Below are positions 50,028 through 56,456 of a stretch of DNA of 64,000 bases, piece by piece. The notes beneath the pieces are model-generated. The model searched no databases and was not told the DNA's origin. It saw only the letters and a program-made list of their open reading frames with translations. Made by a program: the position numbers and the translations under genes. Positions within the stretch are counted from its first letter, which is position 1. Every line of letters starts with the position of its first letter. The stretch is from a virus. Lineage: Duplodnaviria > Caudoviricetes. Location of the stretch: IMG/VR virus record IMGVR_UViG_3300049136_000131, positions 5,323 to 69,322 of that record; one strand, written 5' to 3'.

Positions 50028-51014
50028 GTGGCCAGGACAGGCCCACAGAAGATCCCCGGCGCCAGCCAAACCTACTTCTACGGAACCGGCCGCTACTCCG
50101 GCTCCGACATGGAAGTGAACTGCGGCGTCGTCCACACCACCGAGGGCCGAAGCCTCCCCAGCTACAGCGGCGGAGCCATGGCCCCGACTGTGACAGGCGT
50201 GCCCGACATCAAGGCCAAGAAGATCCGCTGGTACCAGCACTTCGACGTCGACGAGTCCGCCCGCGCCCTCGCCAACAAGCTCGGCGGCGTGGCGACCAAT
50301 ACCGCGAACGCCTTCCAGATCGAACTCGTCGGCACCTGCGACGCCAAGAGGTCGACCGTGTGGGACGGCAAGCGGGCCGGCGTCGACTACATCTACTGGC
50401 CGGGCGCTCCAGAGTGGGCGCTCGCTGAGGTGGCGTGGCTGGTGCGCTGGCTGCACGACTACCACCGCATCCCTCTGACCTGCGTGCGCGACTGGCTCGC
50501 TTACGGCAAGGACCCGCGCCGGCCCGGCATCACGCCAGCTTCCTACGGGGCGAGTCCTGCCCGCATGTCTCATTCTGCCTGGCGCGCCTTCACCGGCTGG
50601 TGCGGGCACCAGCACGTACCGGAAAACGACCACGGCGACCCGGGCTCCATGAACTTCGCCCGCGTCATTCAGCTCGCCAAGGGCGAGCCCAGCACCGAGG
50701 AGGACCCCATGGCCGGCATCACCAAGCAGGACATCCACAACGCTGTGTGGAGCATCGACGGCATCAGGGCCGGTTCGACGGAGAAGAACCCGAAGAACGA
50801 GACGTGGCAGCCGCAGACGTACCTGAAGGGCACGTTCGAGAACACGGTGAAGATCCTGGCGGCGGAGGTGGGGCAGTCGGCAGCGATCGCCAAGCTGGCC
50901 CAGCTCGTCGGCTCCGACGTTGACACCGAACAGGTCGTCGCCGCCGTGGAGAAGGCCATCGCCGACGCCGTTGTCAAGGTCAGTGTCGACGTCACCGGCA
51001 CCGACGCCTCGTGA
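50028..51014 (+). CDS. endolysin, N-acetylmuramoyl-L-alanine amidase
   Basis: VVHTTEG, QIELVG, GHQHVPENDHGDPG zinc-amidase motifs. Confidence 0.88.
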   Translation: MARTGPQKIPGASQTYFYGTGRYSGSDMEVNCGVVHTTEGRSLPSYSGGAMAPTVTGVPDIKAKKIRWYQHFDVDESARALANKLGGVATNTANAFQIELVGTCDAKRSTVWDGKRAGVDYIYWPGAPEWALAEVAWLVRWLHDYHRIPLTCVRDWLAYGKDPRRPGITPASYGASPARMSHSAWRAFTGWCGHQHVPENDHGDPGSMNFARVIQLAKGEPSTEEDPMAGITKQDIHNAVWSIDGIRAGSTEKNPKNETWQPQTYLKGTFENTVKILAAEVGQSAAIAKLAQLVGSDVDTEQVVAAVEKAIADAVVKVSVDVTGTDAS

Positions 51015-51565
51015 GCGCCATCGACTACGACCTGGAGTTCCTGGAGGACGGGCGCCACATCGACCTGATCTCCATCGGCATGGTGTGCGACGACGGCCGC
51101 CAGTACTACGCCGTCAACCGCGACATGCCGGTACGGAAGATCCGCAAGCACAAGTGGCTGATGGAGAACGTCGTCCCCGGCCTGCCCAAGGGCAGCGGAG
51201 ACCGGCACAACCACGTGCCGAAGTCTTGGCTGTTCGACTACGCCGACCCGGTCGTGAAGCGGCGTGAGCGGATCGCCGACGACGTCATGGACTTCATCCG
51301 CGCCGCAGGACCGGACGTGCAGCTGTGGGCGAACTACGGCGCCTACGACCACGTCTGCCTCGCCCAGCTCTGGGGCCGCATGACCGACCTCCCCGAGGGC
51401 GTCCCCATGTTCACGCACGACATCCAGCAGGAACGCGCCCGGCTCGGCATCTCGTGGGACGCCCTACCGAAGCAACTCTCCAGCGAGCACAACGCGCTCG
51501 CGGACGCCCGCCACAACCAGACCGTCCGGCGCTGGCTCGCCGAACAGGAAGCGAGAGCATCATGA
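51011..51565 (+). CDS. DEDDh 3'-5' exoribonuclease (Rv2179c/RNase AS-like)
   Basis: DYDLEFLEDG..LISIGMV, AYDHVCL, HNALADARH. Confidence 0.85.
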   Translation: MSAIDYDLEFLEDGRHIDLISIGMVCDDGRQYYAVNRDMPVRKIRKHKWLMENVVPGLPKGSGDRHNHVPKSWLFDYADPVVKRRERIADDVMDFIRAAGPDVQLWANYGAYDHVCLAQLWGRMTDLPEGVPMFTHDIQQERARLGISWDALPKQLSSEHNALADARHNQTVRRWLAEQEARAS

Positions 51566-52706: not shown

Positions 52707-52880
52707 ATGCCCGAACCGATCCCGCTGCGACCGCGCCGCGACGACACCGCTGCGGACATGCGGTCCCTCGTCCAACTTGGCGAGGTGGAACCGCAGCCCA
52801 TCCCGGAGCCGGCCACGAACCCGTTCCAGGAGCCGGTGTACAACCCGCCCCTCGAACCACCCGCCGACGAACCTGCGTGA
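52707..52880 (+). CDS. small Pro-rich protein
   Basis: GGAG RBS; MPEPIPLRPRRDDTAADMRSLVQLG.. Confidence 0.45.
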   Translation: MPEPIPLRPRRDDTAADMRSLVQLGEVEPQPIPEPATNPFQEPVYNPPLEPPADEPA

Positions 52881-52881
52881 C

Positions 52882-52913
52882 AACGCCCCGCCGCCTTCGG
52901 GCGGTGGGGCGTT
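52882..52913 (+). terminator. terminator ending the late operon
   Basis: AACGCCCCGCCGCC-TTCG-GGCGGTGGGGCGTT. Confidence 0.75.
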
Positions 52914-52997
52914 CTGGCCTATCTGGGGCACGAGTTGGCGAAGCCACTGGACGCGTTACCGGTTGATGCGGGTATGGTGGTCACACAACTTCATGCA

Positions 52998-53067
52998 CCT
53001 CCCGGTGCGCAGGCCGCGGCTACTTCTTTGGGTGAACTCGCCGCACGCCGACTCTGATCTCGGGAGG
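52998..53067 (+). ncRNA. short Y-RNA-like ncRNA (about 70 nt)
   Basis: Terminal stem CCTCCCG/CGGGAGG; CCCGGTGCGCAGG, CGGCTACTTC and TGATCTCGGG motifs shared with the next RNA; upstream of Ro60. Confidence 0.7.
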
Positions 53068-53078
53068 CACAGCATCGG

Positions 53079-53219
53079 GGGTGCCCGGTGCGCAGGCGAC
53101 GGCTACTTCCACTGTTAATGGGGTGGTTGCGGGTTCGAGTCCCGCCGGAGGCTTAGCGGCCTCCGTAGCTCAATCGGCAGAGCACCTACGTACCGTCACC
53201 GTCTTGATCTCGGGCACCC
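53079..53219 (+). ncRNA. yrlA: YrlA-like Y RNA with circularly permuted tRNA-like domain (about 141 nt)
   Basis: Terminal stem GGGTGCCCG/CGGGCACCC; anticodon-like arm, T arm GCGGG-TTCGAGT-CCCGC, looped acceptor stem CGGAGGC/GCCTCCG, then D arm GCTC-AATCGGCA-GAGC. Confidence 0.85.
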
Positions 53220-53232
53220 CACTGCTGAGCTT

Positions 53233-53254
53233 CCCCTCCACGTGAGGGGTTTTT
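53233..53254 (+). terminator. terminator-like hairpin overlapping the Ro60 RBS
   Basis: CCCCTC-CACGT-GAGGGG-TTTTT ending 2 nt before ATG 53257. Confidence 0.55.
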
Positions 53255-53256
53255 CT

Positions 53257-54918
53257 ATGTCCCGCTTCAACACGCGCGGCACCCGTCCCGCCGTCCACTC
53301 GCCCGTGAAGTCGACCGGGGAGACGACCCGCACCCACGAAGGCGGCACCGGACACCTCCGCGACGCGAAGAGTGAACTCTTCCTTCTCGCCCTCAGCAAC
53401 ATGGTCGGCGCCGACACCTTCTACGAGAAGGGCGGCGACCGCGACGACCGCTACACCCAACTCGTGCGCCAGCTCGCCGTCTTCGACCCGGCCTGGACAG
53501 TCGGCTTCCTCGGCTGGCTCCGCGGCGAGGGCAACATGCGCACCGCATCCCTCGTCGGCGCAGCCGAGTTCGTCAAGGCCCGCCTCGATGCAGGCCGCGG
53601 GACCGGCGGGCTCACCGGCACCTCGGCCCTGGAGACCGAGCAGAACGGCGGCTACAACCGGCAGGCCATCCGCGCCGTCCTCCAGCGCGCCGATGAGCCG
53701 GGGGAGATGCTCGGCTACTGGACCAGCAAGTACGGCCGCCGCCTGCCCAAGCCGGTGAAGCGCGGCATCGCCGACGCCGTACAGCGCCTGTACAACGAGC
53801 GGTCGCTCCTCAAGTACGACACCGACTCCAAGGGCTACCGCTTCGGCGACGTCCTGGAACTGGTGCACGCCTCGCCGCGGGCGCCGTGGCAGGGCGACCT
53901 GTTCCGGTATGCCATCGACCGCCGTCACCGCAACGACGCCGCGATCCCAGCCCACATGCGAATCCTCACCTCGGACGTAGTCCTGCGACACCAGGCAAGG
54001 CAGAGCGCCGAAGCCCTACTCGACAGCGAAGCGCTTCACGGCGCAGGGATGACGTGGGAGACGACCCTGTCGCTGGCAGGCGACAGGGTCGACAAGGCGA
54101 AGCTGTGGGAGGCGCTCATCCCGTCCATGGGCCTGATGGCCCTCGCGAGGAACCTGCGGAACTTCGACGAGGCGGGCGTCTCCGACGAGGTGGCCGCCCG
54201 TATCTGCGCCCGCTTCACCGACCCGGAGCAGGTGCGGAAGTCGCGCATGTTCCCGTTCCGCTGGTGGGCCGCCTACAAGCACGCCCCCTCCCTGCGGTGG
54301 GCCCACGCCCTCGAGCAGGCCCTCGGCCACTCCCTTGCCAACGTGCCGCGGCTGAAGGGCCGCACGCTGATCCTGGTCGACCGGTCCCCGTCCATGTTCC
54401 CGGGCTACTACTTCTCCACCCCGAACAGCTCCGACATCACGCTCGCCGAACAGGCAGCCGTGTTCGGCTCCGCCCTTGCCCTACGCGCCGAGAGCCCGAC
54501 CCTCGTCGAGTTCGGATGGACCAGCCAGCGACTCGACGTACCCAAGGGCGGCTCGGTGCTGAAGCTCATCGAGAAGTACGGGCAGATCGACGGCACCGAC
54601 ATCCCGTCCGCCGTCAAGCAGCACTACGACCGGCACGACCGCGTCGTCATCGTCACCGACGAACAGACCCGTCCCGGCTGGCTCCCCTCCAACGGCTGGC
54701 AGCGCGGCGGCATGCGGGAGACCGCCATCGACGACCTCGTGCCGAAGACGACGCCCGTCTACATGTGGAACATGGCCGGCTACAAGCCCGGCGCCATGCC
54801 CAGCGGGACGACCGGCCGCCACACGTTCGGCGGGCTCACCGATCACGCCTTCCGGCTCGTGCCGCTCCTCGAAGCGGGACGTGACGCCAACTGGCCGTGG
54901 ATGCAGCCAGCCGCCTGA
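53257..54918 (+). CDS. rsr: Ro60/TROVE-domain RNA-binding protein with C-terminal vWA domain
   Basis: THEGGTG, GNMRTASLV, PKPVKRGIADA, MTWE, MALARNLRNF, SRMFPFR, LILVDRSPSM, VIVTDEQ. Confidence 0.92.
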   Translation: MSRFNTRGTRPAVHSPVKSTGETTRTHEGGTGHLRDAKSELFLLALSNMVGADTFYEKGGDRDDRYTQLVRQLAVFDPAWTVGFLGWLRGEGNMRTASLVGAAEFVKARLDAGRGTGGLTGTSALETEQNGGYNRQAIRAVLQRADEPGEMLGYWTSKYGRRLPKPVKRGIADAVQRLYNERSLLKYDTDSKGYRFGDVLELVHASPRAPWQGDLFRYAIDRRHRNDAAIPAHMRILTSDVVLRHQARQSAEALLDSEALHGAGMTWETTLSLAGDRVDKAKLWEALIPSMGLMALARNLRNFDEAGVSDEVAARICARFTDPEQVRKSRMFPFRWWAAYKHAPSLRWAHALEQALGHSLANVPRLKGRTLILVDRSPSMFPGYYFSTPNSSDITLAEQAAVFGSALALRAESPTLVEFGWTSQRLDVPKGGSVLKLIEKYGQIDGTDIPSAVKQHYDRHDRVVIVTDEQTRPGWLPSNGWQRGGMRETAIDDLVPKTTPVYMWNMAGYKPGAMPSGTTGRHTFGGLTDHAFRLVPLLEAGRDANWPWMQPAA

Positions 54919-55733: not shown

Positions 55734-56456
55734 TTACTCGGAGGCGCGCTGCTGGGCTCTACGGAGCAACCGAAGCAGTAGATCGGCCAACTGGACCACC
55801 TCGGCTGCCTCGACCGGATCGTCGAAGTGCACCGTCCGGTGGCTAGCGGGATTCTTGAAGGCGCCGATGGCTCCCGCGAACAGCTCCATGAGCGCGACGA
55901 CTTCACCTCCGTGCGCTCCCTTGTCGGCGAGAGGCCCACCCGGCTTCAAAGCTTGCCGCATGAGGTCCACGCCGATAACCGATGAGTCCAGGCCGGCGGC
56001 GGCTCGAACCTCGACCTCGACCGCCTTCATGGCGGCGAAGCAGGCCGTCTCGTAGTCGCCCAGATTGAAGATGGGGCGCACCTTCTCCTCAAGCGTCGGA
56101 TCGAGCACTCCTGCGAGGCGGTCTGCGGCCCAGAGCTTCGCTTGACCCTTTGAATCCGTCGCTATCTCAAGGCCGTCGGTGGTCACGCGTTGCCAGGAGG
56201 AGGTCGTGTTCTTGGGATGCGGCCCGATAAGCCCCCGCGACTCCAGCCACGCCCAGGCGTCCGCCAGGCGGGCGAGGAGGCGGTCTTTGTCCCGCTCGCC
56301 GCTGTGGTCGAAGGCTTGTTCTGCGCTGCGGAGCATGTTGTTGGCGTTCACCGTGCGCCCTTCCCCGAATGATCGGAGCAGAGCCATGGCGAGCTCAGGC
56401 GTCGGAAGCTGACGGATCTGTTCGACCGGCACCGGACCGGAGTAGCTCATCGTCAT
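55734..56456 (-). CDS. TIGR02391/Ymh-like family protein
   Basis: AWAWLESRGLI N-domain; YETACFAAMKAVEVEVR, GVDLMRQAL, LFAGAIGAFKNPASH. Confidence 0.8.
   Translation of the reverse strand: MTMSYSGPVPVEQIRQLPTPELAMALLRSFGEGRTVNANNMLRSAEQAFDHSGERDKDRLLARLADAWAWLESRGLIGPHPKNTTSSWQRVTTDGLEIATDSKGQAKLWAADRLAGVLDPTLEEKVRPIFNLGDYETACFAAMKAVEVEVRAAAGLDSSVIGVDLMRQALKPGGPLADKGAHGGEVVALMELFAGAIGAFKNPASHRTVHFDDPVEAAEVVQLADLLLRLLRRAQQRASE

What the first reader, a model, noticed from the sequence alone, without database searches (positions are those of the whole stretch)
53107..53184. Circularly permuted tRNA-Asn(GUU) mimic that keeps an anticodon-like loop
Seen: order is anticodon-like arm TTCCA-CTGTTAA-TGGGG, variable GTGGTT, T arm, acceptor 3' strand, TTAGCG loop, acceptor 5' strand GCCTCCG, TA, D arm. 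The 5' acceptor plus D-arm sequence GCCTCCGTAGCTCAATCGGCAGAGCA and the CUGUUAA loop read like tRNA-Asn. The acceptor end is looped shut, so it cannot be charged. Known: YrlA RNAs mimic tRNA through D, T and acceptor stems. Inference: the retained GUU loop could act as a decoy or sensor for anticodon nucleases, or recruit tRNA-modifying enzymes. I cannot verify whether this feature is already described for YrlA.
Basis: partly seen in the sequence, partly recalled or inferred. Interest (0 to 1): 0.7.

Follow-up and report, generated by a model that had tools for sequence, protein, structure and literature searches.

The report
Prophage Y RNA with anticodon-arm mimic
This is a YrlA-type Y RNA of a Streptomyces prophage, sitting just upstream of the phage's Ro60 gene. 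Its tRNA look-alike part includes a conserved anticodon-like stem-loop, which published models label a variable arm or say is absent, but the GUU triplet itself is not conserved.

Summary
Window 53078-53220 (+) is a YrlA-class Y RNA. It lies upstream of a TROVE/Ro60 (rsr) gene in a 69-kb Streptomyces provirus and next to a shorter second Y RNA.

The closed acceptor and the permuted order are known YrlA features. The anticodon-like hairpin is real and conserved. It occurs in 64 of 80 actinobacterial rsr loci, in about 22 of 32 related viral loci, and in Xanthomonas and Rhizobium phage loci.

Covariation corrects the stem. Its top two pairs join the two bases before the variable loop (53122-53123) to the two bases after D arm plus N26 (53185-53186), not to the upstream UU. 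The lower three pairs and the 7-nt loop come from the upstream strand. This gives a 5-bp composite stem and a complete cloverleaf.

The loop frame C32-U33...U36-A37-A38 is conserved. Positions 34-35 are the most variable sites of the RNA, with 17 to 31 different triplets. So this is not a conserved Asn mimic, although this copy is closest to Streptomyces tRNA-Asn (58/74).

The hairpin corresponds to the "V" stem-loop of Chen et al. 2014. M. smegmatis YrlA has it and is cleaved by RNase P and CCA-tailed in vivo, so "cannot be charged" is unsafe. A decoy role is untested.

The parts
52998..53067 (+). Short YrlB-like Y RNA. It has the same terminal stem and the same YUACUUC motif but no tRNA-like domain.
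   Evidence: It shares 5' CCCGGUGCGCAGG and 3' UGAUCUCGGG with the larger RNA. It is conserved at the same position in related loci.
53078..53220 (+). Whole YrlA-class Y RNA (class H, meaning the form with the hairpin).
   Evidence: MFE fold -74.5 kcal/mol, z = -3.96. Rfam YrlA 44.5 bits, E 8.8e-9. My model R1 scores 130.7 bits.
53078..53096 (+). 5' strand of the terminal stem, with the conserved GGUGCGCAGG (53087-53096). Presumed Ro60-binding module.
   Evidence: It pairs with 53209-53220. Helix 1 is 98.5% paired, and one pair covaries (AU 46, CG 17, GC 2). Ro binding itself is inferred from the YrlA family (PMC4201824).
53098..53106 (+). 5' strand of connector helix P2 (GACGGCUAC), which ends in the conserved YUAC.
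   Evidence: It pairs with 53190-53197. Several of its pairs have compensatory changes (helix 2: 5 pairs, 6).
53107..53108 (+). UU linker. It is invariant and not the pairing partner of G53122/G53123.
   Evidence: As a pair with positions 42-43 it gives only UG/UA, 12 of 68 cells unpaired and no two-sided change. UUC is also conserved in the short Y RNAs that lack the hairpin.
53109..53111 (+). CCA, the lower 5' strand of the anticodon-like stem (tRNA positions 29-31).
   Evidence: It pairs with 53119-53121. Pair types are CG 62/UA 1; CG 57/UA 4/GC 2/AU 1; AU 53/CG 7/GC 2/UA 1.
53112..53118 (+). 7-nt anticodon-like loop CUGUUAA. The triplet GUU is at 53114-53116.
   Evidence: In 59 seven-nt loops: C32 57, U33 59, U36 49, A37 47, A38 58. 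Positions 34-35 are variable and give 17 triplets.
53119..53123 (+). UGGGG, the 3' strand of the anticodon-like stem (positions 39-43). 53119-53121 pair with the upstream CCA and 53122-53123 pair with the downstream CC.
53124..53128 (+). Variable loop UGGUU (positions 44-48).
   Evidence: U48 together with A15 (53173) keeps the Levitt pair. Across class H this pair is G:C in 53 and A:U in 15 of 70.
53129..53145 (+). T arm GCGGG-UUCGAGU-CCCGC.
   Evidence: Aligned to the Rfam YrlA T arm. 100% paired.
53146..53165 (+). Closed acceptor: 3' strand CGGAGGC, loop UUAGCG (53153-53158), 5' strand GCCUCCG. RNase P cleavage is predicted between 53158 and 53159.
   Evidence: The 7-bp stem covaries strongly (helix 6). 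The RNase P site is inferred from M. smegmatis YrlA (PMC4201824).
53166..53184 (+). U8-A9, D arm GCUC-AAUCGGCA-GAGC, and A26.
   Evidence: Aligned to the Rfam YrlA D arm. 24/26 identical to the 5' part of Streptomyces tRNA-Asn. N26 is a purine in 69 of 70.
53185..53186 (+). CC at tRNA positions 27-28, forming the top two pairs of the anticodon-like stem with G53123 and G53122.
   Evidence: Pair types are GC 59/AU 5/other 1 and GC 41/CG 23/AU 1, 99.2% paired. In the mixed viral and chromosomal set GC, CG, AU and UA all occur.
53187..53220 (+). UAC linker, P2 3' strand (53190-53197) and terminal-stem 3' strand with UUGAUCUCGGG.
53233..53254 (+). Intrinsic-terminator-like hairpin plus T run, between the Y RNAs and the rsr start codon.
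   Evidence: The hairpin is conserved in related loci.
53257..54918 (+). rsr, a Ro60 ortholog (TROVE domain), 553 aa.
   Evidence: Pfam TROVE E 7.5e-16. 77% identical to a Streptomyces sparsogenes locus. Phage homologs are annotated 'Ro-like RNA binding protein'.

Best explanation
The element is a YrlA-type Y RNA encoded by a Streptomyces prophage.

Anatomy. Its terminal stem (GGUGCGCAGG / UUGAUCUCGGG) is the presumed docking site for the phage's own Ro60 ring protein. A connector helix (P2) leads to an effector module that is a complete tRNA cloverleaf in permuted order. The module has a T arm, a 7-bp acceptor closed by a 6-nt loop, a D arm, purine 26, a 5-nt variable loop and a 5-bp anticodon-like stem with a 7-nt loop.

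The composite stem. The stem is built from three strands. Positions 27-28 follow the D arm as in a real tRNA. Positions 29-31 come from the upstream strand. P2 leaves the stem between 28 and 29, so the site is a three-way junction.

What is selected. Selection keeps the shape of the loop (C32, U33, U36, A37, A38), not the triplet. Positions 34-35 drift freely.

Inferred function. The module works as a whole-tRNA look-alike that tRNA-recognising proteins can engage. By analogy with M. smegmatis YrlA, RNase P opens the acceptor loop and CCA is added. The two halves stay base-paired on Ro60.

Inferred origin. The permuted order and the Asn-like body fit descent from the junction of two tandem tRNA-Asn genes. 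No tool here shows which partner the anticodon-like loop serves.
For: Shown here:
- YrlA identity and the adjacent rsr gene.
- Every helix is supported by compensatory changes. In A2, 94.3% of cells pair and the covariation score is 0.445 against 0.160 in shuffles, 0 of 500 shuffles as high. In A4, 95.7% of cells pair.
- The 27-28/42-43 pairs covary: GC/CG/AU/UA, and GC 41/CG 23/AU 1 and GC 59/AU 5.
- The loop frame is conserved while positions 34-35 have the highest entropy of any aligned core position of the RNA.
- The Levitt pair 15:48 switches G:C to A:U in step, in 68 of 70 copies. N26 is a purine in 69 of 70.
- Re-ordered by the composite model, ARAGORN of 70 modules a tRNA with the loop triplet as anticodon.
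- Class H is present in 64 of 80 Rsr-anchored chromosomal loci and about 22 of 32 viral loci. It is also in Xanthomonas and Rhizobium phage loci.
- Tandem tRNA-Asn genes with 6-7 nt spacers match the Rfam YrlA model.

From the literature:
- The YrlA module folds like tRNA in a crystal structure (bioRxiv 10.1101/312249).
Against: - No experiment was done on this RNA. Expression, ends, Ro60 binding and processing are all inferred.
- Sequence cannot tell whether the hairpin or P2 stacks under the top two pairs in three dimensions. In the Salmonella crystal the connector takes the anticodon-stem position.
- C29-G41 never varies, so that pair is unproven.
- The AC/GU pairs that close P2 are invariant, so they are unproven too.
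- The lower three pairs were a selection criterion in my parse. The covariance model removes that bias only partly.
- The score against Rfam's YrlA model is below its gathering threshold (44.5 against 69).
- The discriminator is U. Streptomyces tRNA-Asn has G there, which I recall is an AsnRS identity element.
Confidence: 0.65

Rival explanations
1. Variable-arm model, as drawn by Chen et al. 2014. The connector helix P2 takes the anticodon-stem position under the D stem. The hairpin sticks out as a long variable arm, as in class II tRNAs. Its loop is then conserved for a reason unrelated to anticodon mimicry.
For: The published text calls the fourth stem-loop 'V' and places YUAY at its start. 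In the Salmonella crystal the connector occupies the anticodon-stem position. Class O relatives have no hairpin and still keep the same core.
Against: The 27-28/42-43 pairs covary and lie exactly where a tRNA anticodon stem starts: after purine 26, and before a 4-5 nt variable loop whose last base keeps the Levitt pair. The top and lower pairs together usually make 5 bp. The loop is 7 nt in 59 of 65 copies, or 61 if the two 9-nt cases are read with one more closing pair, and it has the universal tRNA frame C32-U33...A37-A38. As far as I recall, long variable arms of class II tRNAs have shorter loops without this frame.
Confidence: 0.2
2. The anticodon-like loop is a decoy or sensor for anticodon-loop nucleases from host defence or toxin systems. 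Alternatively it is a handle for anticodon-loop modification enzymes.
For: - The setting is phages and prophages.
- Positions 34-35 vary fast on an otherwise fixed RNA, which could reflect an arms race.
- U36-A37-A38 is kept. This is the loop context in which t6A37 is made (my own knowledge).
- In phage Kela an RNA ligase gene lies next to Ro. In Salmonella rsr lies in the rtcBA RNA-repair operon, which responds to damaged tRNA (PMC7790460; title and abstract only).
Against: - Chromosomal, non-phage copies show the same variability.
- The acceptor-closing loop varies as much, so neutral drift is enough to explain it.
- The triplet matches the closest-tRNA isotype of the body in only 11 of 70 copies.
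- A single RNA would be heavily outnumbered by cellular tRNAs.
- No nuclease gene was identified nearby. Only eight ORFs between 49.6 and 58.9 kb were scanned against Pfam, and five of them matched no family.
Confidence: 0.12
3. A true permuted or split tRNA gene. After RNase P cleavage, trimming and CCA addition it would become a two-piece tRNA that is charged and decodes.
For: - The order (3' part, spacer, 5' part) is that of permuted tRNA genes.
- The re-ordered sequence is called tRNA-Asn by ARAGORN.
- M. smegmatis YrlA gains CCA in vivo.
- Six of 70 closing loops encode discriminator plus CCA.
Against: - The triplet changes freely on a constant body.
- The RNA is always flanked by the Ro-type terminal stem and lies next to rsr.
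- The discriminator is U rather than the G of Streptomyces tRNA-Asn.
- A helix leaves the anticodon stem, which I would expect to clash with the ribosome.
Confidence: 0.03

Closest known systems
Mycobacterium smegmatis YrlA (Chen et al. 2014, PMC4201824)
   Same: It is encoded upstream of rsr together with a YrlB. It has a T arm, D arm and a closed 7-bp acceptor. The published probe and primer sequences give UUAC-CA-CUUCUAA-UGG-AAUGGUC-GC, so it has the same hairpin with a 7-nt CU-NNN-AA loop.
   Different: It is chromosomal, not phage-borne, and its triplet is UCU. The UU linker is absent. The paper labels the hairpin 'V'.
Salmonella Typhimurium YrlA (Rfam RF02553; crystal structure PDB 6CU1, Wang et al. 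2018)
   Same: It is a Ro60-associated RNA with a permuted tRNA-like module, a closed acceptor and the innermost 'anticodon-stem' pairs next to the D arm and variable loop. The window aligns over the full model.
   Different: It has no hairpin and 'lacks the anticodon loop'. The stem runs on into the connector through a kink. Its acceptor is 6 bp and it is not cut by RNase P. The window scores 44.5 bits, below the 69-bit threshold.
Permuted tRNA genes of the red alga Cyanidioschyzon merolae (Soma et al. 2007; recalled from memory)
   Same: The 3' part of the tRNA lies upstream of the 5' part, and the acceptor ends are joined by a short spacer.
   Different: Those genes yield mature decoding tRNAs with fixed anticodons through a circular intermediate. 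Here the break is inside the anticodon stem and carries a Ro-binding extension, and the triplet is not fixed.
Deinococcus radiodurans Yrn1
   Same: It is a Ro60-bound Y RNA with a T-arm-like element and, in one drawing, a possible 'anticodon arm' with a 5-bp stem.
   Different: That loop is 6 nt, the D arm is doubtful, the orientation of the arms differs and it is thought to have evolved independently.
Tandem tRNA-Asn(GUU) genes of Streptomyces and other Actinomycetes
   Same: The junction reads anticodon arm, variable loop, T arm, acceptor 3' strand, 6-7 nt spacer, acceptor 5' strand, D arm. The Rfam YrlA model matches it (E 1e-6 to 1e-7). The window module is 58/74 identical to this tRNA.
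   Different: These are two ordinary tRNA genes. They have no Ro-type terminal stem and are not next to rsr.

Membership tests
YrlA Y RNA (Chen 2014; Rfam RF02553) | Encoded close to a Ro60/Rsr (TROVE) gene and on the same strand. | tested here: met
   The RNA ends at about 53220 and rsr starts at 53257 on the same strand. Pfam TROVE E 7.5e-16.
YrlA Y RNA (Chen 2014; Rfam RF02553) | Conserved T-arm-like and D-arm-like stem-loops separated by a closed 'acceptor' stem-loop. | tested here: met
   Full-length alignment to the model. The helices are 95-100% paired with covariation. The Levitt pair covaries.
YrlA Y RNA (Chen 2014; Rfam RF02553) | Score at or above Rfam's gathering threshold (69 bits). 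| tested here: not met
   44.5 bits, E 8.8e-9, and no hit at gathering. None of the 151 Actinomycetes genomes searched reached the threshold either. I suspect the model is built mainly from hairpin-less YrlAs.
YrlA Y RNA (Chen 2014; Rfam RF02553) | 5' Ro-binding motif GNCGAAN0-1G, in a stem formed by the two ends. | tested here: inconclusive
   The literal motif is absent. A different conserved 5' block, GGUGCGCAGG, sits in a terminal stem that is 98.5% paired. From memory it resembles the GGUCCGA of vertebrate Y RNAs.
YrlA Y RNA (Chen 2014; Rfam RF02553) | Bound by Rsr/Ro60 in vivo. | not testable with these tools
   This needs immunoprecipitation.
Canonical tRNA (Rfam RF00005) | Acceptor stem formed by the 5' and 3' ends, and a score above 29 bits. 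| tested here: not met
   No RF00005 match in the window or in the whole 69-kb record. The ARAGORN call at 53080-53154 rests on the anticodon-like arm and T arm only.
Permuted or split tRNA gene | 3' part upstream of 5' part, which re-orders into a cloverleaf. | tested here: met
   ARAGORN of 70 re-ordered modules a tRNA.
Permuted or split tRNA gene | Anticodon fixed and consistent with the identity of the body. | tested here: not met
   17 to 31 triplets on near-constant bodies. Isotype agreement in only 11 of 70.
Permuted or split tRNA gene | Processed to a charged, decoding tRNA. | not testable with these tools
   This needs acid-gel northern blots or aminoacylation assays.

The most novel reading that the evidence does not exclude
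After RNase P opens the acceptor loop and CCA is added, as happens to M. smegmatis YrlA, hairpin-bearing YrlAs would be two-piece tRNAs held on Ro60, with a real anticodon arm. They could then be aminoacylated, modified or cut like tRNAs. The fast-changing positions 34-35 would be the footprint of a conflict with anticodon-loop nucleases, with the Y RNA acting as bait or alarm for tRNA damage during phage infection.
Probability: 0.1. Interest if true: 0.85.

Novelty: new member of a known kind. Interest (0 to 1): 0.5.

Why it matters
What the tRNA-like half of bacterial Y RNAs is for remains open. Published work describes that half as acceptor, T and D arms, with the anticodon stem replaced by a connector.

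Here covariation across about 100 relatives indicates something more complete in most actinobacterial and actinophage copies, and in some proteobacterial phage copies. The so-called variable stem-loop completes a 5-bp anticodon stem with a 7-nt loop that keeps the universal tRNA loop frame. That widens the list of candidate partners to proteins that read the anticodon end of tRNA. It also gives concrete mutants to test.

There is a practical point too. tRNA finders call these RNAs tRNA genes, and public phage records carry such calls:
- 'tRNA-Asn' in Microbacterium phage SM23
- a 74-nt 'tRNA-Ser(gct)' in Streptomyces phage Alone3
- 'tRNA-Arg(tct)' in Gordonia phage VanLee
- 'tRNA-Thr' in Xanthomonas phage 10KY502B

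Such calls would inflate counts of phage tRNA genes.

Tried and rejected
1. A real tRNA-Asn gene, as ARAGORN calls it. Rejected: no Rfam tRNA match.
2. Rejected for the top two pairs.
3. The MFE register CCACU/GGUGG. It does not fit the covarying columns.
4. The idea that each copy mimics one specific tRNA, with the triplet matching the body. Only 11 of 70 agree and the margins are tiny. The window's Asn match is best but narrow.
5. Pairing of the triplet with the loop of the neighbouring short Y RNA. The window has AAC opposite GUU, but L016 and L002 carry GCU with no matching change (by eye).
6. The supplement of Chen 2014, which would hold alignments and drawn structures, is not held. I therefore could not see how 'V' is drawn for M. 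smegmatis or read its full sequence.
7. The sigma-70 promoter scan found nothing in 52800-53320.
8. A DNA search of the phage collection found only phage SM23.
9. The search of 151 Actinomycetes genomes with the Rfam model gave mostly weak hits, many at tandem tRNA genes. Genomes G007 and G015 are unpublished and were not used.

Full report
**1. What is there**

The window belongs to a 69,322-base IMG/VR provirus record. The closest chromosomal relatives of its Ro60 gene are in Streptomyces; S. sparsogenes is 77% identical.

There are two slips: the variable loop is UGGUU (5 nt), and the top of the stem is paired differently (section 4).

The surrounding RNA, 53078-53220, folds into a closed multi-branch structure of -74.5 kcal/mol with z = -3.96. 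It is followed by a terminator-like hairpin at 53233-53249. Next comes a 553-aa TROVE-domain ORF at 53257-54918. A shorter RNA at 52998-53067 shares the same 5' and 3' blocks but has no tRNA-like part.

**2. What family it is**

At gathering thresholds Rfam reports nothing in the window. With E-values, 53099-53205 matches YrlA (RF02553) over the whole model at 44.5 bits, E 8.8e-9.

ARAGORN calls 53080-53154 tRNA-Asn(gtt). The Rfam tRNA model matches nothing in the window or in the whole record. So the only 'tRNA' of this prophage is the Y RNA.

The closed acceptor and the permuted order are the published hallmarks of YrlA (PMC4201824). They are not new.

**3. Relatives**

The Ro60 protein brought in 32 viral loci and 80 chromosomal loci from Streptomyces, Kitasatospora, Micromonospora, Nonomuraea, Streptosporangium and others. 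A DNA pattern brought in 120 more viral stretches.

Upstream of rsr there are arrays of two to four Y RNAs in these loci and more in some phage records. The tRNA-like ones fall into two classes.

- **Class O** is the canonical YrlA. A 4-5 bp 'anticodon stem' runs on into the connector.
- **Class H**, to which the window belongs, has a hairpin between the conserved YUAC-UU and the variable loop.

A covariance model built on class H separates the two cleanly. Class H scores 104 bits or more and class O 97 or less. Class H is present in 64 of the 80 chromosomal loci, which were chosen through the protein and not the RNA. It is also present in about 22 of the 32 viral loci.

Class H also occurs in Gordonia phages VanLee and Neville, and in Xanthomonas phage 10KY502B. 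A variant, with the strand break one pair lower, occurs in Rhizobium phage RHph_TM39.

**4. The stem is built from three strands**

The two bases just 5' of the variable loop (tRNA positions 42-43; G53122, G53123) could pair in two ways. The other is the two bases that follow D arm plus N26 (C53185, C53186).

On 34 diverse sequences the second option gives these pair counts:
- GC 24, AU 5, CG 1, UA 1, UG 1, other 2
- GC 25, CG 7, AU 1, UA 1

That is 97% paired, with two-sided changes at both pairs. The UU option gives only UG/UA, leaves 12 of 68 cells unpaired and shows no two-sided change.

On the 65 model-found sequences the same pairs read GC 59/AU 5/other 1 and GC 41/CG 23/AU 1, 99.2% paired. 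UUC is also invariant in the short Y RNAs that have no hairpin, so it is conserved for some other reason.

The lower three pairs (53109-53111 with 53119-53121) covary at two positions: CG/UA/GC/AU and AU/CG/GC/UA. The third pair, C-G, hardly varies.

Together this gives a 5-bp stem. Positions 27-28 continue from the D arm exactly as in tRNA. Positions 29-31 arrive from the connector side. The site is therefore a three-way junction inside the anticodon stem.

The core around it behaves like tRNA. N26 is a purine in 69 of 70 copies, the variable loop is 4-5 nt, and the Levitt pair 15:48 is G:C in 53 and A:U in 15 of 70. Re-ordered by this model, ARAGORN of 70 modules tRNAs with the loop triplet as anticodon. 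In native order 24 of 70 are miscalled the same way.

**5. The loop**

In 59 seven-nt loops of the chromosomal set the counts are C32 57, U33 59, U36 49, A37 47 and A38 58. Position 34 is G, C or U and never A. Position 35 takes any base. There are 17 different triplets.

In the larger parsed set there are 31 triplets. Within 29 near-identical Streptomyces copies, positions 34 and 35 have the highest entropy of any aligned core position of the RNA. U36 and A38 hardly change.

So the frame of an anticodon loop is under selection and the 'anticodon' is not. The acceptor-closing loop varies as much, so neutral drift suffices and diversifying selection is not shown.

**6. Is it an Asn mimic?**

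I extracted 58 distinct tRNAs from Streptomyces scabiei. The window's re-ordered module is closest to tRNA-Asn(GUU) at 58/74. Its 5' 26 nt match 24/26, the anticodon loop and T loop are identical, and the variable loop matches 4/5. Thr (56), Arg (55) and Lys (54) follow closely.

Near relatives with the same body carry GCU (L016, L006). Across 70 modules the triplet's amino acid equals the best-matching tRNA in only 11. The claim holds for this copy as a resemblance, but not as a conserved identity.

One lead on origin came up. Tandem tRNA-Asn genes separated by 6-7 nt occur in S. scabiei and several other Actinomycetes. Their junction has exactly the class H order, and the Rfam YrlA model matches it. 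One YrlA (L307) even has the T arm of the host tRNA-Asn. GUU is also the commonest triplet. Descent from such a junction is plausible but remains an inference.

**7. What the literature says**

Chen et al. [quoted passage not shown] They use 'anticodon arm' only for Deinococcus Yrn1.

Their M. smegmatis probes spell UUACCACUUCUAAUGGAAUGGUCGC, which is the same hairpin with loop CUUCUAA. That RNA is cut by RNase P at the tRNA 5' site and gains CCA in vivo. They attribute this to its 7-bp acceptor. The window copy also has 7 bp.

Wang et al. 2018 state that Salmonella YrlA 'lacks the anticodon loop'. No paper in the searchable library links YrlA to an anticodon-like loop. The figures and supplement of Chen 2014 were not available, so I cannot exclude that a drawing shows it.

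**8. Function**

What is shown: family, context, secondary structure, loop constraints and distribution.

What is inferred: Ro60 binding through the terminal stem, RNase P and CCA processing, and the module acting as a whole-tRNA look-alike for tRNA-binding proteins.

The decoy or sensor idea is compatible with several observations. These are the phage setting, the RNA ligase next to Ro in phage Kela, and the Salmonella rsr-rtcBA link to damaged tRNA. It has no direct support, and the same variability is seen in chromosomal copies.

**9. Verdict**

This is a real, well-supported YrlA Y RNA, and so a new member of a known kind. In my reading it is mislabelled in the published model: it is an anticodon-arm mimic rather than a variable arm. 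The conserved-GUU and 'cannot be charged' parts do not hold.

No claim here rests on the unpublished genomes G007 and G015.

Noticed in passing
window 52998-53067: A second, short Y RNA (YrlB-like) with the same terminal stem and YUACUUC motif but no tRNA-like domain. It is conserved at this position in nearly all related loci.
   Followed up: partly
window 53233-53254: A terminator-like hairpin (CCCCUC-CACGU-GAGGGG plus U run) lies between the Y RNAs and the rsr start codon, and is conserved in relatives. The Y RNAs may be a separate transcription unit, or read-through may control rsr.
   Followed up: no
window 51011-51565: An ORF with an Rv2179c-like 3'-5' exoribonuclease domain (Pfam E 4e-12) lies about 1.5 kb upstream of the Y RNA/Ro60 unit, on the same strand.
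   Followed up: no
L001 2974-3040; L291 1274-1347; L292 1204-1275; L325 1729-1796: Public phage records annotate hairpin-bearing YrlAs as tRNA genes. Examples are SM23 'tRNA-Asn', Alone3 'tRNA-Ser(gct)' (74 nt, too short for a Ser tRNA), VanLee 'tRNA-Arg(tct)' and Xanthomonas phage 10KY502B 'tRNA-Thr'. The Rfam tRNA model matches none of them.
   Followed up: yes
L305 (S. scabiei G001:C1:3470730-3470881); L300-L302, L306: Tandem tRNA-Asn(GUU) genes with a 6-7 nt spacer are conserved in several Actinomycetes. Their junction is matched by the Rfam YrlA model. This is a possible evolutionary source of the permuted module and a source of false YrlA hits.
   Followed up: partly
L293 729-1481 (Streptomyces phage Kela): A gene annotated as RNA ligase lies immediately upstream of the Ro-like gene. 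This recalls the rsr-rtcB linkage in Salmonella.
   Followed up: no
L291 800-1420; L325 1270-1860; L327 900-1700: Some phages carry arrays of four to six Y RNAs of mixed types upstream of Ro. In Alone3 the array is embedded in the phage's tRNA gene cluster.
   Followed up: partly
L008, L009, L011, L012, L020 (about 1330-1460): Proviruses whose Ro60 is 71-74% identical to the window's carry a class O YrlA instead. It still contains ACAGUUAAU where the hairpin loop would be, and its 4-bp stem covaries (CCAU/AUGG to CCGA/UCGG). The two architectures seem to interconvert.
   Followed up: partly
window 55734-56456 (-): An ORF with a Hypoth_Ymh domain (Pfam E 2e-21) lies downstream of rsr on the opposite strand.
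   Followed up: no
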